From Acidobacteriota bacterium (GTDB lineage Bacteria > Acidobacteriota > Thermoanaerobaculia > Multivoradales > J023), in the NCBI GenBank assembly GCA_039027015.1, contig JBCCLG010000002.1, positions 1-40,859 of the forward strand: a DNA stretch of 40,859 bases, written 5' to 3'. The notes beneath the pieces are model-generated. The model had not been told where the DNA came from. It ran no database searches and was given only the letters and a program-made list of their open reading frames with translations. Shown piece after piece: positions 12,736 to 23,029 of the stretch (position 1 is its first letter; every line of letters starts with the position of its first letter). The translations under genes were made by a program, and so were the position numbers.

Positions 12736-14861
12736 GACGGATCCTCCTTCTCGGTCTCGGGTCCTCCGAGCTTCTTCTCGTGGAGATAGCACCAGCCCCA
12801 ATCCTCTCCCGGCTCGAGGGACTTCATGACCGCGTGGCCGGTGGCGTGGAAATGGGCCGTGGCGTGGCGGTTCGGGGAGCTGTCGCAGCAGCCCACGTAG
12901 CCGCACACCAGGCAGACGCGCAGATGCACCCAGCGATCTCCGGTCTCGAGGCAGTCCTGACAGCCGGCGGAGGCGGGCAGCACCGGCTCGAGGCCCTCGG
13001 TGTGCTCGCATCCCTCGCCGCTCAGGGAAACCGGCGCTTCGGGATCGAAGGACACGGCCGGCGCCGCGTCCTGGAGCAGCGAACCGGCGGCCGCCGCGGA
13101 GTCGAGGCGGCCGCGCTCCGCGAGGCGCCGCACGCTCGCCACGTGCTCCACCACCGCTTCCTCGCTGGCGCCGTAGGTCAACATCACCTCCGAGCACAGG
13201 CGCAGGGTCGACTCGAGATCGTCGGCTGCCACGCTGTCGGCCCCGGCCTCTGCGAGGGTCTTGGCGTCGCGGGTCGAGCGGGTGCGCACCAAAATTTTGA
13301 GCTCCGGCGCCAGGCCCCGAGCCACCGCGGCCACGGCCTCGGCCTTGGCAGGCTCGTCGTCGGCCACCACCATCAGCCGCGCCCGGCCGATGCCGGCGTG
13401 GCGCAGGGTCTCCGCGCTGCCGTTGTCGCCGCGCAGAACGGCCATGCCGAGCTTCTCCGCTTCATCGGCGCCAAAAGGGCTTAGGGTGACGATCAGAAAC
13501 GGGATCTCCTGGCTGGCCAAAGCCTTGGTCAGCCGCTGCGCCGAGGCCGCGTAGCCGGCGACGATCACGTGATCGCGAAGTTCGGCCAGAGCCTCCTCAT
13601 CCACCGGCGGCAGCTCTTCGGGATCGAGCGCCTCCTGGCGGCCTTCGACCCGGTCGAGGCGCGCCCCGAGCTTGGCGAGCAGGGGCGTTACGACCATCAG
13701 CACCACCGTGGCGGCGACGAAAATCTGTGAGCCCCCCGCCTCCATGCCGAAGGGCGTTAAGCCCAGGTCGCGGCCGGCGCGCTCGAGAACGAAGGAGAAC
13801 TCCCCCACCTGCGCCAGCATCAGGCCGCTGCCGAGGGCCGCGGGCAGAGGCTGCCGCAGGGCCAGGGCCGCTCCCGTGGTGGTGAGGATCTTGAGCGCCA
13901 GCACCGCCAGCAGGGTGAGCAGCACCGGCATCGGGTTGGCGAAAAGATAAGACAGGTCGAGCAGCATGCCCACGGACACGAAGAAGACGGCGCTGAAGAG
14001 AATCTGCAGCGGCAGAATCTCGGTGAGCGCGTGGTGGCTGAACCGGCTCTCGCTCACCACCAGCCCGGCCAGAAAAGCCCCCAGGGAAACGCTCACCCCG
14101 GCCAGGCTCGAGAGATAGGCCGTGCCGAGGCAGATCGCGATGATGGTCAGCAGGAAGACCTCCTGAGAGCAGGCGAGCGCCACCTTCTCGAGCAGGGGCG
14201 GCATGATCCGGCGCGCGGCGAGCAGCACCACGGCGATCAGCAGGCCCGCGCTGCCGAGGGCCTTGGCCACGTCGGCCGCGTCGCCGCCGGTGCCCGCCAG
14301 CGTCGGCAGCAGCAGCACCATGGCGATGATGCCGAGGTCCTGAAAGATGAGAAAGGCCACCGACAGACGGCCCCTGGGCGTGGCGGTGGCGGCCTCGTCG
14401 GCCAGCAGCTTGACGACGATGGCGGTCGAGCTGAGCGCGATCAAGAAGCCCGTGAACACGCCGCTCTGCCAGGAGGCGCCGGTGGCGACCATGGCGCCGG
14501 TGGTGATCACCGTCACCAGGGTCACCTGCAGACCGCCGCCGCCGAAAATCAGCCCCTTGATGCGGCTCAGCTTCTCGAGGCTGAACTCGATGCCGATCGT
14601 GAAGAGCAGCAGCATCACGCCCAGCTCGGCGGCCTGATCGATGAGGGATTGATTGGTGATCAGGCCGAGGGCGTTGGGCCCCAGCAGCACCCCGGCCGCC
14701 AGGAATCCGACGATCGGCACCAGGCCCAGGCGCGAGCACAGATAGGCGATGGCGGCGCCCGCCACCAGCAGGCAGACCGCCTCGAAGAGAAAGGGCGGCG
14801 CGGCGGCGGCGAGCAGACTCTCGATTCCGGCCAAGGCTGGGCCCAGGAGGGTGGCTGTCAT
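12732..14861 (-). CDS. CPA2 (Kef-type) cation:proton antiporter with an RCK/TrkA-N-like domain and a C-terminal UBP-type zinc finger
   Basis: ATG at 14861 (MTATLLGP...) shares 1 nt with the upstream stop (TGATG). The multi-TM Na/H-exchanger-like region includes LGVMLLLFTIGIEFS and VFLIFQDLGIIAM. The RCK-like segment is HVIVAGYAAS...LMVVADDE. The C-terminus CQDCLETGDRWVHLRVCLVCGYVGCCDSSPNRHATAHFHATGH is a ZnF-UBP signature. Confidence 0.9.
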   Translation of the reverse strand: MTATLLGPALAGIESLLAAAAPPFLFEAVCLLVAGAAIAYLCSRLGLVPIVGFLAAGVLLGPNALGLITNQSLIDQAAELGVMLLLFTIGIEFSLEKLSRIKGLIFGGGGLQVTLVTVITTGAMVATGASWQSGVFTGFLIALSSTAIVVKLLADEAATATPRGRLSVAFLIFQDLGIIAMVLLLPTLAGTGGDAADVAKALGSAGLLIAVVLLAARRIMPPLLEKVALACSQEVFLLTIIAICLGTAYLSSLAGVSVSLGAFLAGLVVSESRFSHHALTEILPLQILFSAVFFVSVGMLLDLSYLFANPMPVLLTLLAVLALKILTTTGAALALRQPLPAALGSGLMLAQVGEFSFVLERAGRDLGLTPFGMEAGGSQIFVAATVVLMVVTPLLAKLGARLDRVEGRQEALDPEELPPVDEEALAELRDHVIVAGYAASAQRLTKALASQEIPFLIVTLSPFGADEAEKLGMAVLRGDNGSAETLRHAGIGRARLMVVADDEPAKAEAVAAVARGLAPELKILVRTRSTRDAKTLAEAGADSVAADDLESTLRLCSEVMLTYGASEEAVVEHVASVRRLAERGRLDSAAAAGSLLQDAAPAVSFDPEAPVSLSGEGCEHTEGLEPVLPASAGCQDCLETGDRWVHLRVCLVCGYVGCCDSSPNRHATAHFHATGHAVMKSLEPGEDWGWCYLHEKKLGGPETEKEDPS

Positions 14862-16513
14862 CAAAGCGACGCCAGGTGTTGATGCATGAAGTGCACGGCC
14901 ACCGAGCCTTCGCCCACCGCGGAGGCCACGCGCTTCACCGAGCGGTGGCGCACGTCGCCGGCGGCGAAAACGCCGGGCAGGCTCGTCTCGAGGAGAAAGG
15001 GAGATCGCTCGAGGGGCCACTCGCCCAGCTGCTCCGACGCGAGGTCCGGACCGGTGAGCACGAAGCCTCGCCCCTCGCGGGCCACGGCGGAGTCGAGCCA
15101 CTCGGTTCTCGGGCGAGCTCCGATAAACACAAAGACCGCGCTGGCGGCCTCCCGCCGCTCCTCGCCGTTCTGCCGCAGGGTCAGCGCCTCCAGACGCTCT
15201 TCGCCGTGGCATTGGGCGATCTCGGCGTGCAGGCGCACCTCGATGCGGGCGTGCTCCTCGATGCGCTCTACCAGGTAGTTCGACATCTTGGCGGCCAGGG
15301 AGCCGCCGCGCACCAAAACGACCACGCGCTCGGCCCAGTCGGCGAAATGCATGGCCGCCTGCCCGGCCGAGTTGCCGGCGCCGACCACGAAAACCGTTTC
15401 GCCGCGGAAATTCATCGCCTCGGTGAGGCTGGCGCCGTAGTACACGCCCCGGCCGGCCAGGGCCTCGGCGCCGGGGGCCGGCAGCTTGCGCCACGCTACG
15501 CCGCCAGAGAGCATCACGATATGGCTGGTGATCTCGCTGCCGTCGGCGAGCTTGAGGCGCCGGTAGCGCCCCTCGGCCTCGAGAGACCGCACCTCCACCG
15601 GGGTCAGAACCTCCACCCCGAAGCGCCGGGCCTGGGTGAGGGCCCGGTGGGCCAGGTCGGCGCCCGAGAGCCCCGAGGGAAAGCCCAGGTAATTCTCGAT
15701 CCGGCTGCTGGTTCCCGCCTGGCCGCCCGGCGCCTCGCGCTCGAGCAGCACCGTCTTGAGCCCCTCGGAGGCGGCGTAGACCGCCGCCGCCAGGCCCGCG
15801 GGACCGCCGCCGACGATCGCGACGTCATAGAAATCTTCGTGCGCCCGGGTCTGCAGGCCCACGGCCTCGGCCACCTCGGCCAGGCCGGGGTTGAACAGCT
15901 TCTCGCCGCTCTCGAGCACCACCATCGGCAGGTGCTCTTCGCTATCGCCGGGCGTAGACTCCGCCAGCTCGCGGGCCTCCTCTGAGGACTCGACCTGCAG
16001 ATATTGATAGGGCACGAGATTGCGCGCGAGGAAATCGCGAATCTCGTGACAGGCCGGCGACCAGCGCGATCCCACGATGCGAAGACCGCCGTAGCCGGGC
16101 TTAAAGCCCAGGCGCCAGTCGCCGAGCAGGTCATCGAGCACCGGGTAGAGAGCCTCCTCCGGAGGATCCCAGGGCTTGAGGAGGTAGTAGTCGAGCCGCG
16201 AGTCGTTGATCGCGCCGATCGCAGCCTCGGTGTCGGCATACGCCGTGAGCAGCACGCGCTTGGCCCCCGGGTGGACCTCCCGCGCCTGCGCCAGAAGCTC
16301 GACCCCCGACATCTCGGGCATGCGGTGATCCGAGAGAACGAGCGCCACCGCCTCGCCGCGCTCCCGCAGCTCCTCCAGGGTCTCGAGCGCCGCCGCGCCC
16401 GAATCCGCGCGCAAAATCGAGTACTCCTTGCCGTATCGGCGCCGCAGGTCCCGAGCGACCGCGCGCAGCACCTGGGGATCGTCATCGACGGTCAGAAGAA
16501 TCGGTCGGTTCAT
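14861..16513 (-). CDS. Fused response-regulator receiver, glutaredoxin-like and thioredoxin-reductase-like flavoprotein
   Basis: REC is ILLTVDDDP...LVLSDHRMPEMSG...KPW. The Grx-like segment is IVGSRWSPACHEIRDFLARNLVPYQYLQV. The FAD and NAD(P) Rossmann motifs are VAIVGGGPAGLAAA and VFVVGAGNSAGQAA, followed by GVFAAGDV. No CxxC is present. Confidence 0.9.
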   Translation of the reverse strand: MNRPILLTVDDDPQVLRAVARDLRRRYGKEYSILRADSGAAALETLEELRERGEAVALVLSDHRMPEMSGVELLAQAREVHPGAKRVLLTAYADTEAAIGAINDSRLDYYLLKPWDPPEEALYPVLDDLLGDWRLGFKPGYGGLRIVGSRWSPACHEIRDFLARNLVPYQYLQVESSEEARELAESTPGDSEEHLPMVVLESGEKLFNPGLAEVAEAVGLQTRAHEDFYDVAIVGGGPAGLAAAVYAASEGLKTVLLEREAPGGQAGTSSRIENYLGFPSGLSGADLAHRALTQARRFGVEVLTPVEVRSLEAEGRYRRLKLADGSEITSHIVMLSGGVAWRKLPAPGAEALAGRGVYYGASLTEAMNFRGETVFVVGAGNSAGQAAMHFADWAERVVVLVRGGSLAAKMSNYLVERIEEHARIEVRLHAEIAQCHGEERLEALTLRQNGEERREAASAVFVFIGARPRTEWLDSAVAREGRGFVLTGPDLASEQLGEWPLERSPFLLETSLPGVFAAGDVRHRSVKRVASAVGEGSVAVHFMHQHLASL

Positions 16514-17603: not shown

Positions 17604-18842
17604 TCAGGTCTGAAGCTGATGAGAAATCAGGGAGCTCGCTCGAGCGATGAGCTCGCCCTCGTCCCACTGGCGCCGGGTTGCGGCGTGACGAACGCGGCCT
17701 TCTGCATCGAGAACGTAGGCCTCGATTTGATGCCGGTTGACCACGCTTGACACGTAGTTGACGCCGAGGTCGAAGTGGGCGCGCAGTCGCTCGAAGCCTT
17801 CGGGGAGGCGCAGCATCCTGTGGTTTTCCGCGGGCCGGGCTCCCCAGATCTCGGCGTAGCGCTTGAGCCTCGGCGGCAGGTCGTAGCCGGGGTCGTAGGT
17901 GATAGCGGCGGTCCTGATGGCGCCGCTGAGGCCCTGCTCCTCGAGCAGGCGCTGGGCGCGGCCCAGGCGAGTGACGGTCATGGCGCATTTGGTGGGGTTG
18001 TCGCAGCGGGTATAGAAGAAAACCACCAGGCTCGGCCGACCGATCAAAAAGTCGCCAAAGCGCACCGCCGCGCCGTCTTGATCCTGGAATTCGAGGTCCG
18101 CCAGGCTCGACGGATCGGCGGCGCCCTCGATTTCGCGGGCGCTCGAGGCGGGGGCGGGCTTGGATGCGGCGCAGCAGGATTCGGCCTCGGCGCTTTCGAG
18201 AACGTCGATCGTCCTGTCGAGGGCCGCTGACCACGAAGCCTCGGGACCGACTTCGCGCCGCAGCTCGCGCAGCCTCGGCAGGGCGACGCGGGCCCTCGGG
18301 CCCAGCCATTCGAGGGTCTTGAGAAGCTCGGCAACCGCGGTCGTGCGCTCACCCGCCACGCCGTAGCCGCCGTAGGCCTCGAGGGTGACCGAGTCGTCGC
18401 GCGAGCGAATATAGAGAAGGGCGCTCAGCAGCGGCTGCGTCCACTCGGCGCGCGGAGCGGAGCGGCGCAGGACCGCGGCGGCGGCGGCGGTGAGGTAGGC
18501 GTCGTGGCTGCTCTCCAGCTCCTCCAGCACGAAGGGCAGAGCCTCGGGCGTCAGCTCATCGAGGGCGAGGAGCAGCCAGCCGCGCATGCGGGTCACGGCG
18601 GCCGCGCCTCGGCCGTCGTATACCGGGTGGCTCTCAAGCAGCAGGGCCTCGATCTGCCCTGCGCGGCCCGGCACTGCGCGGCCCGGCACTGCGCGGCCCG
18701 GCACGGCGCGGCTGTCTCGCAGCCAGGCGATCAGCTCCTCCTCGCTGCGGATGGCAGGCGCGGGCGGCCGCTTGACGCGCTCCGGAGTCGCGGAGTCTTC
18801 AGAAGACGCGGAGCTCTCGGGAGACGAGCTGCAGCAGCTCAC
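17604..18842 (-). CDS. HEAT-like N-terminal domain fused to an SCO1/SenC-like thioredoxin-fold domain
   Basis: The C-terminal part of the 714-aa track ORF. GTG at 18842 forms a GTGA overlap with the upstream HEAT gene stop, with GAGG upstream. The SCO-like core is LVVFFYTRCDNPTKC ... NRHQIEAYVLDAEGRV. The start is uncertain. Confidence 0.65.
   Translation of the reverse strand: MSCCSSSPESSASSEDSATPERVKRPPAPAIRSEEELIAWLRDSRAVPGRAVPGRAVPGRAGQIEALLLESHPVYDGRGAAAVTRMRGWLLLALDELTPEALPFVLEELESSHDAYLTAAAAAVLRRSAPRAEWTQPLLSALLYIRSRDDSVTLEAYGGYGVAGERTTAVAELLKTLEWLGPRARVALPRLRELRREVGPEASWSAALDRTIDVLESAEAESCCAASKPAPASSAREIEGAADPSSLADLEFQDQDGAAVRFGDFLIGRPSLVVFFYTRCDNPTKCAMTVTRLGRAQRLLEEQGLSGAIRTAAITYDPGYDLPPRLKRYAEIWGARPAENHRMLRLPEGFERLRAHFDLGVNYVSSVVNRHQIEAYVLDAEGRVRHAATRRQWDEGELIARASSLISHQLQT
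18661..18712. repeat. 15-bp tandem repeat, 3 copies plus a 7-nt partial copy, in-frame inside the CDS
   Basis: The units are gcgcggcccggcact, gcgcggcccggcact, gcgcggcccggcacg, then gcgcggc. They encode RAVPG three times in the 17604-18842 protein. Confidence 0.9.
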
Positions 18843-19717
18843 CCATCGAGCCTCAGGAGCGCCTCGGCGTGACGCACGATCGCCGACGGGCCGTCGTCGC
18901 CCGAGGCGCTGGCGATCCCCAGCCCCTCGCCTTCGGTGACCTCGCGGGCCACCGCGCGAAAGCGCTTGGGATCGAGGGTGGTAAGCGCCGAGGCGGCCAG
19001 CTGGCGGACCTTGGAGTCTTCCGCGGGATCGGCGAAGAGGGCCGCGAAGCGATCTACCGACTCCGGATCGGCGCTCAGCAGGAGGAGCGCCTCGACGCGG
19101 GCGCGCGGGCTGGGCGGATCGTCGGCGATCTGCCGGGCGATCCCCTGAACCTCCGAGTGAATATCGTTGGCGAGAAGCGCCAGGGCGTCGGCGGGGTCGA
19201 CCAGCGCCCGGGCGGGATCGCGCAGGCCCGCCAGCAGGCGCTCCTGGGAGAAACGGTCCTTCTCCTGGCACAGAATCTCGAGGGCCAGCAGGCGAAGCTC
19301 GGCGTCGTCCGACTCGACCTCGGAACGCGCGGCGTCGAGAAAGGCGGGGCGCCACGCGTCGGCGGTCGGGCTTGCGAACGCCGACTGCCGCAGCAGCTGA
19401 AGGCCCGCCTTTTTGATCTCCGCCGACTCCTGGGGATCCTGAACCCTCTCGAGAGCCGCCAGGTGGGCGGTCTCGGGATCGGCGGACCGGGTCAGCAGGC
19501 CGGCGAGCGCGGCGGCGCGGGCGCGCGGATCGGCCTCGCGATTCGCCAGCAGCGCCCGGCGGGACTCCTCCAGGCGCGAGGCTCCCTCTGCGGGCAGGGC
19601 GGCCGCGATCCCCAACTCCCCCTCCTCGGGATCCTGCCCCCGCGCACGCTCGCTGGCGAGGGCGCGGGCCTGGGCAATCTCGTGCTCGATCTGTCGTCTG
19701 TAGTCTCGAACGCTCAT
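18839..19717 (-). CDS. HEAT/armadillo-like repeat protein
   Basis: ORF track, 292 aa, with GAGGAGAG upstream of the ATG. The protein is Ala/Leu/Asp/Arg-rich with about 30-aa helical repeats (DPRARAAALAGLL, DAELRLLALEIL, SPRARVEALLLL, SKVRQLAASAL). Confidence 0.7.
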   Translation of the reverse strand: MSVRDYRRQIEHEIAQARALASERARGQDPEEGELGIAAALPAEGASRLEESRRALLANREADPRARAAALAGLLTRSADPETAHLAALERVQDPQESAEIKKAGLQLLRQSAFASPTADAWRPAFLDAARSEVESDDAELRLLALEILCQEKDRFSQERLLAGLRDPARALVDPADALALLANDIHSEVQGIARQIADDPPSPRARVEALLLLSADPESVDRFAALFADPAEDSKVRQLAASALTTLDPKRFRAVAREVTEGEGLGIASASGDDGPSAIVRHAEALLRLDG

Positions 19718-19744
19718 CGTGTTCTCTCCTCTCGGCCCGAGCCT

Positions 19745-20986
19745 TCAACGTTCCTGGTACGGCACGGTGTCATAGCCGTAGCCGAGCCGACCGCCAGGGT
19801 CCACGCGTCCCTGGAAGTCGATCATGCCGCGCACGGTCGGCGCGTCGCCCGGAGCCGCGGCCAGGGGCGAAGAGGCCAAAGAGCCCCCGGGGGCGAAATC
19901 CGGGCGCGGAGGCGTGGTGACGCCGTTCCAGGGCCAGAGCGTGTCCTCGAGGCGGCGGCCGTCGATGTCCTGCCCGCGGTAGCTGGCGGGATCGTCGGGA
20001 TCGAAGCGGCCGTGAACCCACTGCCACAGCGCCCACAGGCGGTCGACGTTGGCGTGGAGCATGAAGAAGAGCGGGTCCTTGGCGGCGGTGGGGATCGACG
20101 AGATCCAGCCTTCGAAGGAGACGTGGGCGAGGCCGTGAGGATCACCTTCCATCTGCTGGCGAAAGCCCGCGAAAGCGTCGTCGAGCCCCAGGGTCTCCGC
20201 CTGGCCCATGGGCATCACGCCGCGATCGGGCCAGGCCGCTCGGCTGGTGGTGGTGTCGAAGTGGGCGCGGCGACGGATGCCCAGGGTGTTGTCGGTCGTC
20301 CAGGTGGAGAGAGGGTGCCCCGGAATGAAGTCCACCAGGCCGCCGTCGCCGGCCACGCCCATGAAGTCGCGGCGGAAGACGTTGGGCGCCGGCTCGTCCC
20401 AGCGCCAGTAGTGCAGCGAAACGCTCGGGTCGATGGCCTGAAGCTCGCGCTCGAGATCGAGCAGATAGGAGCGGTGCCAGGGCAGAAAGTGCGGTCCGCG
20501 GTGGGCCTGAGGGTTCGAGGCCGAAACGTGCATCGAGCGAAAGTCCGAGAAACGACCGAAACCGCGGTCGTTCAGCGCACCGAAGGCGGCGAGGAAACGA
20601 TCGCGCTCGGCGGGCAGCAGCAGATTCGCGTTCTTGCGCACGCGAACCATCAGCAGGATCTCGGCCAGCGCAACGCCGGCGCCGTCGCTGACGGCCAGGC
20701 GACAGTCGCGCTCCTCGATGCTCGGGTGGCCCCATTTGCCGCCAAGCCAAAAACTCACCCACTCCCCGCCCGCCGGAACATGCAGCTCCAGGGGTTCCCG
20801 AGGGGGCGCGTCGGGCGTAGGGTAGAAGACCGCTTCACCGCCGCCCTCGAGGGCGGCCTCGCTGCTCAACACCAGCTCCACAGGGCCGGCGACGTCGGTT
20901 TGGCGGATGCGGCACGGGGAGGGTGCATAGGCGACAAATCGCCGGGCTTCCCCCAGGGAGCCGTGGATCTCGATTTCGATGGACAT
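19745..20986 (-). CDS. Tyrosinase / type-3 copper polyphenol oxidase with an extra N-terminal domain of about 115 aa
   Basis: CuA is HRGPHFLPWHRSYLLDLE and CuB is HGLAHV...FFMLHANVDRLWALWQ. The ATG at 20986 is preceded by GGGAGGA. No signal or Tat motif was seen. Confidence 0.9.
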   Translation of the reverse strand: MSIEIEIHGSLGEARRFVAYAPSPCRIRQTDVAGPVELVLSSEAALEGGGEAVFYPTPDAPPREPLELHVPAGGEWVSFWLGGKWGHPSIEERDCRLAVSDGAGVALAEILLMVRVRKNANLLLPAERDRFLAAFGALNDRGFGRFSDFRSMHVSASNPQAHRGPHFLPWHRSYLLDLERELQAIDPSVSLHYWRWDEPAPNVFRRDFMGVAGDGGLVDFIPGHPLSTWTTDNTLGIRRRAHFDTTTSRAAWPDRGVMPMGQAETLGLDDAFAGFRQQMEGDPHGLAHVSFEGWISSIPTAAKDPLFFMLHANVDRLWALWQWVHGRFDPDDPASYRGQDIDGRRLEDTLWPWNGVTTPPRPDFAPGGSLASSPLAAAPGDAPTVRGMIDFQGRVDPGGRLGYGYDTVPYQER

Positions 20987-21077
20987 ACCGTCCTCCCTCA
21001 CTCGCTCCGGATAGATTTGGCCGAATCATCTCATCGAGGCCTGAGAGTGATCAAGCTAAGACGGTAGCGTCCGCCTA

Positions 21078-21097
21078 AATGAGAATCTGTTATCATT
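21078..21097. promoter_or_regulatory. Candidate Fur-family (Fur/Zur-like) operator
   Basis: AATGAGAA-tctg-TTATCATT has 8-nt arms matching 7/8 as an inverted repeat. It resembles the AATGATAATCATT core of Fur boxes. It is the most AT-rich stretch of the divergent promoter region, ending 6 nt before the permease ATG and starting 92 nt from the tyrosinase ATG. Confidence 0.4.
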
Positions 21098-21103
21098 AAA
21101 GCC

Positions 21104-23029
21104 ATGCCCCCCTTCGATGCCCTGCCTCCTGGCCCGTGGCTTCTCCTCCTCTTGGGGAGCCTGGTGCCGCTGGCGCTCGGCCCGCTCTTGGCGACCTGGG
21201 CGGATCGCTCAGGCACCGCCAAAGCCGCCGTCGACGCCTTCATCGCGGTTTCGATCACGGGCATCGTGGCTCTCCACATCTGGCCCCATGCTTTTCTCGT
21301 GGCGGGCGCCTGGAGCCTGCTGGGCGGGCTGATCGGCCTGCTCCTTCCCTTTCTTCTCCACGGCGCGCTTCACGCCCACGAGCGCCGCTTCTACCCGCTT
21401 CTGATGGGCCTGGCTCTGCTCGGCCTCGCCCTCCACGCGACCCTCGACGGCATCGCGCTCTTCGCCCCGCTGCTCGACAGCGAGGCAGCCCAGGAAGAGA
21501 TCTATACGGTGCACGGAAAGAGCCAGGCGGCGCACGCGCTCGAGGAAAAGCCGGCTGAGCTTGAGGCGGCGCACGAAGAAAGCGCACATCAACACGCGGC
21601 GAGCGAGCACCGGACCGTTCACGCCCACGGGGAGAGCGATGCAGCACACCCGATGAGCGAGGCGGAGCACGAGCACCCGGAGGCGGGGCATGCGGAGGCG
21701 GCGCACGCGGCGCATGGGGAGGTAGCGCACGAGGAGCACGCGCACGCGGGGGACCCCGAAGCCTGCGAGGCTTCAGCCGCTGCTGGCGGTCACCACCATC
21801 ATCACGATGGAATGAACGCGTCGCTTCTGGCCGGAGCGGTTCTCCTGCATCGCCTGCCCATGGGTCTCGCGATCTGGTGGCTGACCGTGCCCATTCTCGG
21901 CAGGCGCGTCGCCATTTCGGTACTGGCCCTCATCGCCGCCGGCACCCTGGCGGGCTTTGCGCTGGGCGGCGCGCTGCTGCCGGGGCTCTCGGCGCCTGCT
22001 TTCTCCTTCTTCGAGGCGACCATCGCCGGCATGCTGATGCACGTGGTGGCGGGTCACGACCACCGTCATCATCACGGCGCCCCGCGCCCGCAGCCCACCT
22101 GGGCCGCGGCCGCGGGCGCGCGGATGGCGCTGGCGCGGGTCGGCTTCCGCGACCGGATCCACCCGGCGGAGCATCGCTTCGCGGGCGGTCTGGACTTCCA
22201 GCAGACCCTCACCGCCCTGGCCCTGAGCGTCGGGCCCTGGCTGATTCTCGCCATTGCGGTCCAGTGCGCGTGGCAGCTGACGGCCGCGCCGCGCTTCGCC
22301 ACAGGCCCCCTCGCGCCGGATCTCGTGGCCGGCGGCGTGATCTCCCTGGCTCTTTTGGGCGTGGGCTGGACGCTGCTGGGCGCGATCGCCGCGCTGCTGG
22401 TGGCGGCGTGCTGCCGCAGGCGACGTCCGCGCGACTCGATGGGCGAGGAGAGCTCGGCCGCGCCCGCAGCCCGGCGCATCACCCTCGTCTCTCTGGTGTG
22501 GGCGGGTCTGGCCATCGGCCTCGTGGCGCTGCTCGAGTCGCTGGTGCGTCTCCCGTGGCTGCAGACGGCCGAACCGACCTGGAGCGAGCCGGGATCGTGG
22601 CTCGCCGTGGCCGCGGCGGCGCTCGCGGGTCTGGTCCTGTGCCGACACCCGATTTTCGCGGTCATCCTCGGCTTCTACTGGCTGACCTCCGGCTACGCCC
22701 CGGCCCTCGTCGCCACTTTTTTCCTGGCCGGCGTTCTAGGGGCCCTCTGGCGCCAGCGCCGGACGCTGGAGTTTTCGACGCCGCGGGCTGCGGGAGCCGC
22801 GGTGGCGGGGGGCGGCGCGCTTCTCCTGCTCGCCGCGCGGCTCGGGGGACCCGAGCAGGACGCGCTTCTCGCCGCGGGCTCGGGCGCGCCGTGGCAGATC
22901 GCGGCGCTCTACGTTCTTGGCGCCGCGGCCCTGGGACTTTTATTTCTCCTCGGTTTCCGCGGCTTCCTCAGCCCGGTGCTCGAACCGGCCGAGGACTACT
23001 GCCACTCCCACGCCCACCACCACGGATAA
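21104..23029 (+). CDS. Histidine-rich ZIP-like metal permease fused to an additional C-terminal multi-TM domain
   Basis: ORF track, 641 aa. LHATLDGIAL (ZIP TM4-like H-x3-DG) and LLHRLPMGLAIW (TM5-like H-x-x-P-x-G) flank an acidic, His-rich loop of about 100 aa (...AHEESAHQHAASEHRTVHAHGE...GGHHHHHDG). HDHRHHHG and a C-terminal CHSHAHHHG are also present. Confidence 0.7.
   Translation: MPPFDALPPGPWLLLLLGSLVPLALGPLLATWADRSGTAKAAVDAFIAVSITGIVALHIWPHAFLVAGAWSLLGGLIGLLLPFLLHGALHAHERRFYPLLMGLALLGLALHATLDGIALFAPLLDSEAAQEEIYTVHGKSQAAHALEEKPAELEAAHEESAHQHAASEHRTVHAHGESDAAHPMSEAEHEHPEAGHAEAAHAAHGEVAHEEHAHAGDPEACEASAAAGGHHHHHDGMNASLLAGAVLLHRLPMGLAIWWLTVPILGRRVAISVLALIAAGTLAGFALGGALLPGLSAPAFSFFEATIAGMLMHVVAGHDHRHHHGAPRPQPTWAAAAGARMALARVGFRDRIHPAEHRFAGGLDFQQTLTALALSVGPWLILAIAVQCAWQLTAAPRFATGPLAPDLVAGGVISLALLGVGWTLLGAIAALLVAACCRRRRPRDSMGEESSAAPAARRITLVSLVWAGLAIGLVALLESLVRLPWLQTAEPTWSEPGSWLAVAAAALAGLVLCRHPIFAVILGFYWLTSGYAPALVATFFLAGVLGALWRQRRTLEFSTPRAAGAAVAGGGALLLLAARLGGPEQDALLAAGSGAPWQIAALYVLGAAALGLLFLLGFRGFLSPVLEPAEDYCHSHAHHHG

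What the first reader, a model, noticed from the sequence alone, without database searches (positions are those of the whole stretch)
17604..20986. Cytoplasmic-looking tyrosinase co-transcribed with a HEAT-repeat protein and a HEAT/SCO-like fusion: a possible non-MelC1 copper-loading module
Seen directly: a type-3 copper tyrosinase with both CuA and CuB His clusters has no signal peptide and carries an extra N-terminal domain. A HEAT-repeat gene follows after 27 nt. That gene's stop overlaps (GTGA) the start of a protein whose C-terminus is SCO1/SenC-like.

Established knowledge: Streptomyces tyrosinase needs the MelC1 caddie for copper insertion. SCO proteins are Cu(I) chaperones or thiol-disulfide oxidoreductases, normally membrane-anchored and periplasmic.

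Two features are unusual here. The SCO-like protein shows no TM helix or signal peptide. Its Cys pair is spaced Cx5C (TRCDNPTKC) instead of the usual CxxxC, while the distal His (NRHQIEAYVLD) is retained.

Inference: the HEAT scaffold and the SCO-like domain could act as a dedicated maturation or chaperone pair for the tyrosinase.
Basis: partly seen in the sequence, partly recalled or inferred. Interest (0 to 1): 0.7.

Follow-up and report, generated by a model that had tools for sequence, protein, structure and literature searches.

The report
Conserved tyrosinase–HEAT–SCO-like three-gene cassette
A copper-dependent tyrosinase with no export signal sits in a three-gene cassette found in about 190 bacterial species, next to a HEAT-repeat partner and an unusual cysteine-rich SCO-like protein that probably supplies its copper inside the cell, where bacteria are generally thought not to use copper.

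Summary
On the minus strand a 413-aa type-3 copper tyrosinase (19745-20986) is followed after 27 nt by a 292-aa gene (18839-19717). That gene's stop overlaps (GTGA) the start of a 412-aa protein (17604-18842) made of a helical domain plus an SCO-like thioredoxin fold with Cx5C.

This is a tightly conserved cassette. The same order and strand occurs in 69 of 73 evaluable genome loci from at least ten phyla, out of 193 species hits, and no fourth gene is conserved.

The second gene's family is HEAT (59/63 members hit PF13646). It is naturally fused to the tyrosinase in four of the ten long relatives scanned.

In the third protein C280, C286, H341 and H371 are invariant and a CC pair in the linker is nearly so. 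About 60% of loci add a C-terminal MerC-like four-helix membrane domain with a CPxC motif. Others, including the window, carry an N-terminal CC tail instead.

Rare exported versions carry signal peptides on every gene that could be read, whereas the main clade has none on any.

A dedicated partnership is strongly supported. Copper delivery is the best-supported mechanism but remains inferred. I found no paper describing this cassette.

The parts
19745..20986 (-). Gene 1: type-3 copper tyrosinase-family protein, 413 aa, no signal peptide
   Evidence: PF00264 E 4.6e-32. AF2 pLDDT 96.1, pTM 0.94. Closest structures are the Bacillus megaterium and Streptomyces tyrosinases. 120 full-length homologues at 50-70% identity.
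20645..20986 (-). N-terminal all-beta accessory domain of the tyrosinase (residues 1-114), with near-invariant C25 and invariant R28 (YAPSPCRIRQ)
   Evidence: Strands only in the AF2 model. No match to PDB sequences. phmmer against 1.84 billion representatives gave 91 hits, and all 10 long ones tested carry PF00264 after this domain.
20474..20530 (-). CuA histidines H153, H162, H171
   Evidence: Invariant in 120 sequences; codons read directly.
20054..20137 (-). CuB histidines H284, H288, H311. The residue after H284 is Gly, not the Asn of the B. megaterium (N205) and Streptomyces (N191) tyrosinases.
   Evidence: Histidines invariant and G285 at least 90% conserved. N205 and N191 mutant entries appear.
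19718..19744 (-). 27-nt spacer between genes 1 and 2, containing GAGGAGAG before the ATG
18839..19717 (-). Gene 2: HEAT-repeat partner protein, 292 aa, no conserved Cys, with invariant D185 and H187 among 63 orthologues
   Evidence: 59 of 63 orthologues hit PF13646. Conservation from alignment A3. P0283 matches the family profile at probability 99.9, E 2.4e-34, and P0306 matches the window's own protein by BLASTP at E 3e-23.
17604..18842 (-). Gene 3: helical domain plus SCO-like thioredoxin-fold protein, 412 aa. The GTG start overlaps the stop of gene 2.
   Evidence: PF02630 in 98 of 98 members. AF2 pLDDT 87.6, pTM 0.82. Top Foldseek hit BsSco 1xzo, E 7.6e-8, TM 0.76.
18831..18836 (-). N-terminal Cys-Cys (residues 3-4, MSCC...)
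   Evidence: CC or CCC tails in 28 of 120 homologues, all short forms. They never co-occur with the MerC-like domain.
18192..18743 (-). Helical domain of gene 3 (residues 34-217), with near-invariant H72
   Evidence: HEAT_2 hit in only 7 of 98 members.
18659..18712 (-). 15-nt tandem repeat, 3.6 copies, encoding AVPGR three times inside a poorly conserved, low-confidence loop of gene 3
   Evidence: The column is gapped in most homologues.
18171..18176 (-). Linker Cys-Cys pair (C223, C224) just upstream of the SCO-like domain
   Evidence: C in 108 and 112 of 120 sequences. Lies in a lower-confidence linker, pLDDT about 66.
17985..18005 (-). Cx5C motif (C280-D-N-P-T-K-C286) within FFYTRCDNPTKC
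   Evidence: Invariant in 120 of 120. Both Cys align with the two Cys of the SCO CxxxC motif, with a 2-residue gap in the SCO sequence.
17730..17822 (-). Invariant H341 (codon 17820-17822) and H371 (codon 17730-17732). H371 is the candidate SCO-type histidine ligand (VNRH).
   Evidence: Invariant in 120 of 120. H371 lies 91 residues after C280, matching the roughly 90-91 residue spacing in BsSco, yeast Sco1 and human SCO1 (my knowledge of those structures).
20987..21103 (.). Intergenic region shared with the divergent His-rich membrane-protein gene; presumed promoter region
   Evidence: No sigma-70-like site was found.

Best explanation
The three genes form one functional module: a type-3 copper oxidase plus two dedicated accessory proteins that work in the same compartment, which in this window is the cytoplasm.

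Proposed mechanism:
1. The HEAT-repeat protein binds the tyrosinase. It would play the role of a caddie or shielding domain.
2. The SCO-like protein acquires Cu(I) on thiolate sites: the N-terminal CC tail, the linker CC pair, and the Cx5C pair with H371 on the thioredoxin fold.
3. It hands the copper to the apo-tyrosinase held by the HEAT protein.
4. In most relatives the SCO-like protein is fused to a MerC-like four-helix membrane domain with a CPxC motif. This would bring the metal across or from the membrane to the cytoplasm-facing SCO-like domain, as MerC/MerT hand Hg(II) to MerA.
5. The window copy lacks that domain and carries the N-terminal CC tail instead.

What is shown: the genes, their conservation, the fusions, the co-varying signal peptides, the folds and the invariant residues.

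What is inferred: copper binding, the direction of transfer, physical contacts of gene 3 with the other two proteins, and the substrate of the oxidase.
For: **Linkage**
- 69 of 73 evaluable genome loci show TYR-HEAT-SCO on one strand in the same order.
- All 6 main-clade loci fetched by exact-protein look-up show it too, three seeded from gene 3 and three from the tyrosinase.
- Flanking genes differ between loci and no fourth gene is conserved.

**Physical coupling**
- Four of the ten long relatives scanned encode beta-domain, tyrosinase and HEAT in a single polypeptide.
- hhalign of P0283 against the HEAT family profile gives probability 99.9, E 2.4e-34.
- In L087 the fused gene is followed 7 nt later by the SCO-like gene.

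**Same compartment**
- In exported versions of the cassette (L088, L092) all three proteins carry hydrophobic signal-like N-termini.
- In L093 both readable genes do. The contig ends before gene 3.
- In the main clade 0 of 120, 0 of 120 and 0 of 63 proteins do.

**Metal handling**
- 98 of 98 members hit PF02630.
- The fold is closest to BsSco and other copper-binding SCO proteins.
- Both SCO cysteines and a histidine at the SCO spacing are invariant.
- The linker CC pair is nearly invariant.
- 47 of 77 loci carry a fused CPxC membrane domain. 14 of the 16 extension sequences scanned (from the protein set) hit Pfam MerC, best E 1.4e-4.
- The N-terminal CC tail and the MerC-like domain are mutually exclusive: 0 loci have both, against about 4 expected.
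- None of the exported cassettes has the MerC-like domain.

**Precedent**
- Streptomyces tyrosinase needs the caddie MelC1 for copper insertion (PMC3817396).
Against: - No experiment and no complex model was available. AlphaFold-Multimer was not on hand and model coordinates were not returned, so I could not test whether the Cys and His residues cluster in space.
- The Cys spacing is Cx5C, not the copper-binding CxxxC of SCO proteins.
- Thioredoxin-fold neighbours in the fold search also include PrxQ, ResA and TlpA, which are redox enzymes.
- The MerC similarity is below Pfam's gathering score, and that domain is absent from the window.
- Bacillus megaterium tyrosinase is reported to be active without a caddie (my knowledge), so an accessory protein is not a general requirement.
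- 23 of 77 loci have neither the CC tail nor the MerC-like domain, and the cyanobacterial copies also lack the linker CC.
- Three orphan copies of gene 3 have no tyrosinase nearby (L023, L035, L051).
Confidence: 0.5

Rival explanations
1. Redox partner rather than copper donor. The SCO-like thioredoxin-fold protein would be a thiol:disulfide oxidoreductase or thiol trap. It would keep cysteines of the oxidase or its substrate reduced (for example the near-invariant C25), or intercept the reactive o-quinone products inside the cell. The HEAT protein would hold it next to the enzyme.
For: - The thioredoxin fold has PrxQ, ResA and TlpA among its structural neighbours.
- The Cx5C spacing departs from the SCO copper motif.
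- SCO proteins themselves have reported thiol-disulfide oxidoreductase activity (established knowledge; the title of PDB entry 1xzo refers to a 'disulfide switch').
- A cytoplasmic quinone-forming enzyme would plausibly need protection.
Against: - The SCO-type histidine is retained and invariant, which plain oxidoreductases do not need.
- The Thr-x-Cys context (FFYTRC) matches SCO rather than the peroxiredoxin PxxxTxxC motif (read from the sequence; motif knowledge is mine).
- The CC pairs and the fused MerC-like CPxC membrane domain point to metal trafficking.
- No reductant-regenerating partner is conserved nearby.
Confidence: 0.2
2. Metal homeostasis device. The module would mainly handle a thiophilic metal, Cu(I) or possibly Hg(II). 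The MerC-like/SCO-like protein would take up or buffer the metal, and the type-3 copper protein would serve as a sink, a sensor or a cuprous oxidase. In this reading the enzyme serves the metal system rather than the reverse.
For: - A MerC-like domain is present in 47 of 77 loci.
- Cysteine-rich tails occur in other loci.
- In the window a His-rich ~12-TM protein is divergently transcribed next to the cassette.
Against: - Across the cassette family the tyrosinase has the highest median identity to the window's copy (49%, against 46% for the SCO-like protein and 38% for HEAT).
- It keeps all six catalytic histidines.
- No conserved metal regulator, efflux pump or upstream motif accompanies the cassette.
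- The His-rich neighbour is not linked to the cassette in any other locus.
Confidence: 0.12
3. Protein-modifying oxidase. The tyrosinase would act on a residue of its partner proteins, for example converting Tyr to DOPA or a quinone, or forming a Cys-Tyr cross-link. This would build a redox cofactor or an adhesive or cross-linked product. The HEAT protein would be the substrate or the substrate-presenting scaffold.
For: - The HEAT protein is fused or tightly coupled to the enzyme.
- HEAT repeats are typical protein-protein scaffolds (established knowledge).
- Gly replaces the Asn next to the first CuB histidine, which hints at an atypical substrate preference.
Against: - No tyrosine or cysteine is invariant in the HEAT family. 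The only invariant side chains with obvious chemistry are D185 and H187, and H187 is Arg in the fusion P0306.
- This idea gives no role to the invariant Cys-Cys-His triad or to the MerC-like domain.
Confidence: 0.1

Closest known systems
Streptomyces MelC1 (caddie) / MelC2 (tyrosinase) operon
   Same: A bacterial tyrosinase is co-transcribed with a dedicated accessory protein. That protein forms a complex with the apo-enzyme and is needed for copper incorporation (PMC3817396). The catalytic domain of gene 1 is structurally close to MelC2.
   Different: - No protein here resembles MelC1, and no MelC1 Pfam hit was found.
- The gene order is reversed, with the enzyme first.
- There are two accessory proteins of unrelated folds, HEAT and SCO-like.
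- MelC1 carries a Tat signal and exports the pair, whereas the window's three proteins have no export signal.
SCO1/SenC/ScoI copper chaperones of cytochrome c oxidase (BsSco, B. japonicum ScoI, yeast and human SCO1)
   Same: - Pfam PF02630 scores above its gathering threshold in 98 of 98 members.
- These are the closest folds.
- Both cysteines are aligned.
- A histidine sits about 91 residues downstream of the first Cys.
   Different: - The spacing is Cx5C instead of CxxxC, and this is invariant.
- There is an extra ~230-residue helical N-terminal domain.
- There is no N-terminal membrane anchor.
- The protein faces the cytoplasm.
- The linked client is a tyrosinase, not a CuA site.
Cox17 to Sco1 copper relay in mitochondria
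   Same: A vicinal Cys-Cys pair binds Cu(I) in Cox17 and hands it to the SCO thioredoxin fold (my knowledge). Here a near-invariant CC pair sits on a flexible linker directly before the SCO-like domain.
   Different: The CC pair is on the same polypeptide rather than on a separate CHCH-fold protein. There is no sequence relationship to Cox17. Copper binding is untested.
MerC/MerT to MerA thiol relay of mercury resistance
   Same: A small four-helix membrane protein with cysteines in its first helix passes a thiophilic metal to cytoplasmic cysteine pairs. The C-terminal extension in 47 of 77 loci has FPKCPxCW in its first helix, and 14 of the 16 extension sequences scanned hit Pfam MerC.
   Different: - All scores are below the gathering threshold.
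- The domain is fused to an SCO-like domain and linked to a copper enzyme rather than to mer genes.
- It is absent from the window copy.
C-terminal shielding domains of fungal, plant and Verrucomicrobium pro-tyrosinases, and the beta-sandwich domain of mollusc hemocyanin units
   Same: An extra domain is attached to a type-3 copper core. In the natural fusions the HEAT part sits C-terminal to the core, where shielding domains sit. The catalytic core also matches hemocyanin functional units.
   Different: The HEAT fold is all-alpha and is normally a separate protein. The beta domain here is N-terminal and has no detectable match to PDB sequences.
Csp3 cytosolic copper storage proteins
   Same: These are cysteine-rich cytosolic bacterial proteins proposed to supply Cu(I) to a client cuproenzyme. 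They challenge the view that bacteria avoid cytosolic copper (PMC5171941, PMC9484137).
   Different: The fold is unrelated (a four-helix bundle lined with many Cys). They act as storage rather than as a dedicated, operon-linked partner.

Membership tests
Type-3 copper protein / tyrosinase (PF00264) | Pfam score above the gathering threshold | tested here: met
   112.6 bits against a cut-off of 22.6, E 4.6e-32
Type-3 copper protein / tyrosinase (PF00264) | Six copper-ligand histidines (CuA H-x8-H-x8-H; CuB H-x3-H-x22-H) | tested here: met
   H153, H162, H171, H284, H288 and H311 are invariant in 120 sequences
Type-3 copper protein / tyrosinase (PF00264) | Four-helix-bundle catalytic fold like solved tyrosinases | tested here: met
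   Foldseek hits to B. megaterium and Streptomyces tyrosinases, E about 1e-15, TM (target) 0.7
Type-3 copper protein / tyrosinase (PF00264) | Monophenolase (true tyrosinase) activity; Asn after the first CuB histidine, proposed to favour it | tested here: not met
   The residue after H284 is Gly, at least 90% conserved. The enzyme activity itself cannot be tested here. NCBIfam TyrosinaseMelC2 scores 99.7 bits against a cut-off of 450.
SCO1/SenC (PF02630) | Pfam score above the gathering threshold | tested here: met
   43.5 bits against 22.8; 98 of 98 family members hit
SCO1/SenC (PF02630) | Thioredoxin-like fold closest to solved SCO proteins | tested here: met
   Top ten Foldseek hits are SCO or SCO-like proteins (1xzo, 4hde, 6n5u, 4wbj, 4bpy and others)
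SCO1/SenC (PF02630) | CxxxC copper-binding motif | tested here: not met
   Cx5C in 120 of 120 sequences. Both Cys align to the SCO Cys residues, with a 2-residue gap in the SCO sequence.
SCO1/SenC (PF02630) | Conserved histidine ligand about 90 residues after the first Cys | tested here: inconclusive
   H371 is invariant and lies 91 residues after C280. No residue-level alignment to an SCO histidine was obtained. The Pfam match in the window stops at model position 85 of 134 but reaches position 133 in P0025.
SCO1/SenC (PF02630) | N-terminal membrane anchor with an extracytoplasmic domain serving cytochrome oxidase | tested here: not met
   No N-terminal hydrophobic segment in 120 of 120 sequences. 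The linked client is a tyrosinase.
HEAT repeat (PF13646 / PF02985), gene 2 | Profile match to HEAT repeats | tested here: met
   The window's own protein has no hit even at E up to 10. However, 59 of 63 orthologues hit HEAT_2, best E 3.7e-13, and 29 of 63 hit HEAT.
HEAT repeat (PF13646), N-terminal domain of gene 3 | Profile match to HEAT repeats | tested here: inconclusive
   7 of 98 members hit, best E 6.2e-7. The domain is all-helical in the AF2 model. It is not related to gene 2 (hhalign probability 0.2).
MelC1 tyrosinase caddie | Sequence similarity to MelC1; Tat signal peptide | tested here: not met
   No MelC1 family hit for genes 2 or 3 in Pfam or NCBIfam. No signal peptide.
MerC (PF03203), C-terminal domain of relatives only | Profile match; four TM helices with a Cys pair in the first helix | tested here: inconclusive
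   14 of 16 extension sequences hit, best E 1.4e-4, all below the 27.6-bit cut-off. CPxC is invariant in the first hydrophobic segment. The domain is absent from the window.
Known anti-phage defence systems (PADLOC) | Any profile match | tested here: not met
   0 hits for all three proteins

The most novel reading that the evidence does not exclude
The cassette would be a self-contained pathway for making a bona fide cytoplasmic copper enzyme in bacteria. A MerC-like membrane domain (or a Cys-rich tail in its place) captures Cu(I). A Cox17-like CC pair and a Cx5C/His SCO-like site relay it. A HEAT-repeat caddie presents the apo-tyrosinase for loading. If true, it adds a new class of cuproenzyme maturation system, spread over at least ten phyla and about 190 species genomes, and gives a clear counter-example to the view that bacteria keep copper enzymes out of the cytosol.
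Probability: 0.35. Interest if true: 0.8.

Novelty: new variant of a known kind. Interest (0 to 1): 0.65.

Why it matters
**The compartment question.** Reviews place bacterial cuproenzymes in the periplasm, the membrane or outside the cell, with tyrosinase listed as extracellular (Table 1 of PMC7558416). They describe a 'dogma' that bacteria avoid cytosolic copper (PMC5171941, PMC9484137). Here a type-3 copper oxidase and both its partners lack export signals, while sister cassettes carry them on every gene that could be read. That makes the compartment assignment unusually well grounded.

**What it would give if the copper-relay reading holds:**
- a new, widespread maturation route for a cuproenzyme;
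- a second job for the SCO fold, with a distinct Cx5C site;
- a candidate copper-uptake function for MerC-like domains.

**Testability.** The cassette is present in cultured Bradyrhizobium, Nostoc, Anabaena and Pontibacter strains.

**Practical use.** Many environmental tyrosinases of this clade may need genes 2 and 3 for active heterologous expression.

Tried and rejected
1. **Chance adjacency.** Rejected by 69 of 73 colinear loci.
2. **A conserved fourth gene.** Clustering all flank ORFs found none; the next family occurs in at most 10 loci.
3. **The divergent His-rich membrane protein (21104-23029) as part of the system.** It has no homologue in any of 83 related loci and no Pfam or NCBIfam hit. 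I kept it only as a passing note.
4. **Gene 2 and the N-terminal domain of gene 3 as paralogues.** hhalign probability is 0.2.
5. **A HEAT plus SCO fusion in L012.** The 662-aa ORF reads through, but it still contains the normal internal MKSPAVSCCG start and lacks the conserved HEAT C-terminus. This is probably a frameshift or read-through in a long-read MAG, so I did not use it as evidence.
6. **A shared upstream regulatory motif.** No 8-mer occurs in more than 10 of 66 upstream regions.
7. **Sigma-70 promoter and intrinsic terminator scans.** No sites were found.
8. **A defence-system reading.** There are no PADLOC hits.
9. **Alternative partner enzymes next to orphan copies of gene 3 (L023, L035, L051).** The neighbours are unrelated: HemD, TPR, MMPL and a Na/H antiporter. 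L050 is a truncated duplicate that keeps only the last ~100 residues of the HEAT gene.
10. **Literature.** Seven full-text searches found no description of this cassette. An eighth query was rejected for its syntax.
11. **Exact-match look-up of the window's own tyrosinase.** It is not on record.

Full report
**What is in the window.**

Three minus-strand genes lie head to tail.

- **Gene 1 (19745-20986).** It starts at an ATG preceded by GAGGGAGGA and encodes a 413-aa protein.
- **Gene 2 (18839-19717).** It starts 27 nt after the stop of gene 1.
- **Gene 3 (17604-18842).** It starts at a GTG that overlaps the TGA of gene 2 (GTGA), with GAGG 8 nt upstream.
- I found no sigma-70-like promoter or intrinsic terminator inside or around the block. 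The spacing by itself fits a single transcript.
- The surrounding genes are functionally unrelated. They include a Na/H exchanger with TrkA-N and zf-UBP domains, a response-regulator/thioredoxin-reductase-like fusion, a DUF480 protein and amidohydrolases.

**Gene 1 is a type-3 copper oxidase with an extra N-terminal domain.**

- Residues 150-328 of the 418-aa GTG-start ORF (145-323 in the numbering used here) match PF00264 at E 4.6e-32.
- In an alignment of 120 full-length homologues at 50-70% identity, the six copper histidines are invariant.
- The AlphaFold2 model is very confident (pLDDT 96.1, pTM 0.94).
- Its catalytic part is closest to the Bacillus megaterium and Streptomyces tyrosinases.
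- Residues 1-114 form an all-beta domain with no counterpart among PDB sequences.
- A search of 1.84 billion representative proteins with this domain alone gave 91 hits. All ten longer ones I scanned carry a tyrosinase domain directly after it. It therefore looks like a tyrosinase-associated accessory domain.
- The first strand begins at residue 3, so there is no room for a signal peptide.
- One detail may bear on substrate preference. The residue after the first CuB histidine is Gly (at least 90% conserved). The B. megaterium (N205) and Streptomyces (N191) enzymes have Asn there, as their mutant entries show. From the literature as I know it, that Asn has been linked to monophenolase activity. 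The protein may therefore behave more like a catechol or aminophenol oxidase. This is a weak inference.

**Gene 2 is a HEAT-repeat protein, but only at family level.**

- The window's own sequence gives no Pfam hit, even at E up to 10.
- I extracted 62 orthologues from related loci and aligned them with the window's copy (63 sequences). Of these, 59 of 63 hit HEAT_2, best E 3.7e-13.
- The family has no conserved cysteine. D185 and H187 are invariant among these 63.

**Gene 3 is a two-domain protein with an unusual SCO-like site.**

- The model (pLDDT 87.6, pTM 0.82) has a helical domain (residues 34-217), a lower-confidence linker, and a thioredoxin fold (about residues 240-411).
- The best structural matches are SCO copper chaperones. 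BsSco 1xzo leads at E 7.6e-8 with TM 0.76, and PrxQ, ResA and TlpA follow further down.
- All 98 members scanned pass the SCO1/SenC gathering threshold.
- Sequence alignments to solved SCO proteins place C280 and C286 on the two cysteines of CxxxC. The SCO sequences need a 2-residue gap to do so.
- The Cx5C motif FFYTRCDNPxKC is invariant in 120 of 120 sequences, as are H341 and H371.
- H371 lies 91 residues after the first Cys, which is the spacing of the SCO histidine ligand as I know it from BsSco, yeast Sco1 and human SCO1.
- A Cys-Cys pair in the linker (C223, C224) is present in 108 and 112 of 120 sequences.
- The helical domain is only weakly HEAT-like (7 of 98 members). It is not detectably related to gene 2.

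**The cassette is conserved.**

- A scan of one genome per species (185,579 species) found 193 stretches encoding relatives of gene 3.
- The 80 loci kept come mostly from Acidobacteriota: Thermoanaerobaculia, Pyrinomonadaceae, Bryobacteraceae, Blastocatellia, Vicinamibacterales and Holophagales.
- Other loci come from Bradyrhizobium, Nostoc and Anabaena, Nitrospira, Nitrosospira, Myxococcota, Verrucomicrobiota, Chloroflexota, Planctomycetes, Pontibacter, Nocardiopsis, Acidimicrobiales and Burkholderiales.
- In 69 of the 73 loci with enough upstream sequence, a full-length tyrosinase (beta domain included) and a HEAT gene precede gene 3 on the same strand.
- Median identity to the window's proteins is 49% for the tyrosinase, 38% for HEAT and 46% for the SCO-like protein.
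- Of the four exceptions, three are orphan copies and one is a truncated duplicate.
- Look-ups seeded from the tyrosinase gave the same cassette in 3 of 3 cases, including the complete genome of Nostoc flagelliforme CCNUN1.
- Flanking genes differ from locus to locus, and no fourth gene is shared.

**Three further lines tie the proteins together.**

1. *Fusions.*
   - Four of the ten long relatives scanned (P0283, P0306, P0318, P0328) encode beta domain, tyrosinase and HEAT in one chain.
   - The C-terminal part of P0283 matches the profile of gene 2's family over its whole length (probability 99.9, E 2.4e-34).
   - In the P0306 locus the fused gene is followed 7 nt later by the SCO-like gene.
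2. *Co-varying export signals.*
   - In rare divergent cassettes the tyrosinase has a signal peptide, and so do its partners. All three proteins have one in L088 and L092, and both readable proteins do in L093.
   - On a simple N-terminal hydrophobicity score these reach 2.36-3.34. None of 120 tyrosinases, 63 HEAT proteins or 120 SCO-like proteins of the main clade reaches 2.2.
   - The three proteins therefore move between compartments as a set. The window's set is the version without export signals.
3. *Modular cysteine-rich add-ons on gene 3.*
   - In 47 of 77 loci the protein continues into a ~130-residue domain of about four hydrophobic segments. It carries an invariant FPKCPxCW motif in the first segment.
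   - 14 of the 16 extension sequences scanned hit Pfam MerC, all below the threshold.
   - Positively charged residues lie before the first segment, between the second and third, and after the fourth. This fits an N-in topology and leaves the SCO-like domain in the cytoplasm. I read this by eye from the sequences.
   - Another 7 loci, including the window, have an N-terminal CC or CCC tail instead, as do 28 of 120 proteins in the protein set.
   - The two add-ons never occur together. The count is 0 observed against about 4 expected, though the loci are not phylogenetically independent.
   - None of the exported cassettes has the MerC-like domain.

**Most likely mechanism.**

- A copper enzyme is permanently paired with a protein that keeps the SCO Cys-Cys-His triad.
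- That protein adds vicinal cysteine pairs and is often fused to a MerC-like CPxC membrane domain.
- The simplest account is a thiol-based Cu(I) relay ending at the apo-tyrosinase. The HEAT protein would act as the enzyme-bound caddie or scaffold.
- The closest analogies are MelC1/MelC2 for the caddie idea (PMC3817396), Cox17 to Sco1 for a CC-to-SCO hand-off, and MerC/MerT to MerA for a membrane-to-cytoplasm thiol relay. The last two rest on my own knowledge.
- I put this at about 0.5.

**Rivals.**

- The main rival (0.2) is that the thioredoxin-fold protein is a redox or quinone-trapping partner. The altered Cys spacing and the peroxiredoxin and ResA neighbours leave room for this.
- Less likely are a metal-homeostasis role for the whole module (0.12) and a protein-modifying oxidase acting on its partners (0.1).
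- I could not inspect residue distances or predict the complex. No model coordinates were returned and no multimer tool was available.

**Novelty and significance.**

- Seven full-text literature searches found nothing on this cassette.
- Its parts belong to known fold families, and the idea of an enzyme-specific copper chaperone is established. I therefore rate it a new variant of a known kind rather than categorically new.
- Its interest lies in the compartment. Current reviews list no cytoplasmic bacterial cuproenzyme and place tyrosinase outside the cell (PMC7558416). The Csp3 literature explicitly calls cytosolic copper use in bacteria contrary to dogma (PMC5171941, PMC9484137).
- A widespread oxidase module whose three parts all lack export signals, alongside sister cassettes that carry them, makes that question directly testable in cultured Bradyrhizobium, Nostoc and Pontibacter strains.

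Noticed in passing
window 21104-23029 (+): A 641-aa membrane protein with about 12 hydrophobic segments and 43 histidines is transcribed divergently from the tyrosinase, 117 nt away. It has a His/Glu/Ala-rich loop (residues ~125-236), HHHHH and HDHRHHHG runs, and a C-terminal CHSHAHHHG. By eye, HATLDGIA and HRLPMGLA resemble ZIP-family metal-permease motifs. It has no Pfam or NCBIfam hit and no homologue next to the cassette in any other locus.
   Followed up: partly
window 18659-18712 (-), inside gene 3: A 15-nt tandem repeat, 3.6 copies at 97% identity, encodes AVPGR three times in a poorly conserved, low-confidence loop of the helical domain. Most homologues have a gap here, so it looks like a recent in-frame expansion.
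   Followed up: partly
window 21673-21749 (+), inside the His-rich protein gene: Imperfect 15-nt and 24-nt tandem repeats (2.5-2.8 copies) underlie the His/Ala/Glu-rich loop. This suggests the loop grew by repeat expansion.
   Followed up: no
window 14861-16513 (-): A 550-aa fusion of a response-regulator receiver domain with a thioredoxin-reductase-like pyridine-nucleotide disulphide oxidoreductase. This is an uncommon architecture and is not linked to the cassette elsewhere.
   Followed up: no
window 12732-~14800 (-): A Na/H-exchanger-type transporter with a TrkA-N domain and a C-terminal UBP-type zinc finger (PF02148, E 8.5e-12). This is an unusual add-on for a bacterial cation antiporter.
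   Followed up: no
L088/L089, L092, L093 (related loci): Exported versions of the same cassette. The tyrosinase (sometimes with two tandem beta domains), the HEAT protein and the SCO-like protein all carry signal-peptide-like N-termini, and none has the MerC-like domain. In contrast, the lipoprotein-like two-beta-domain tyrosinase P0254 stands alone with no partners (L090/L091).
   Followed up: partly
L050 and L077 (same MAG, MFD10007.bin.2.2): This genome has one complete cassette (L077) and a second copy of gene 3 (L050). L050 is preceded only by the last ~100 residues of the HEAT gene, which are 96% identical to the L077 copy. This is either a decaying duplicate or an assembly artefact.
   Followed up: partly
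L012:5191-7179: A 662-aa ORF reads through from the HEAT gene into gene 3 in the same frame. It still contains the usual internal MKSPAVSCCG start and lacks the conserved HEAT C-terminus. This is probably a frameshift or lost stop in a long-read MAG rather than a true fusion.
   Followed up: yes
L021, L029, L030, L031 (Nostoc, Anabaena, Leptolyngbyaceae): The cyanobacterial copies of gene 3 lack all three optional cysteine elements: the N-terminal CC tail, the linker CC pair and the MerC-like domain. They keep the Cx5C motif. How they would acquire metal is unexplained.
   Followed up: no
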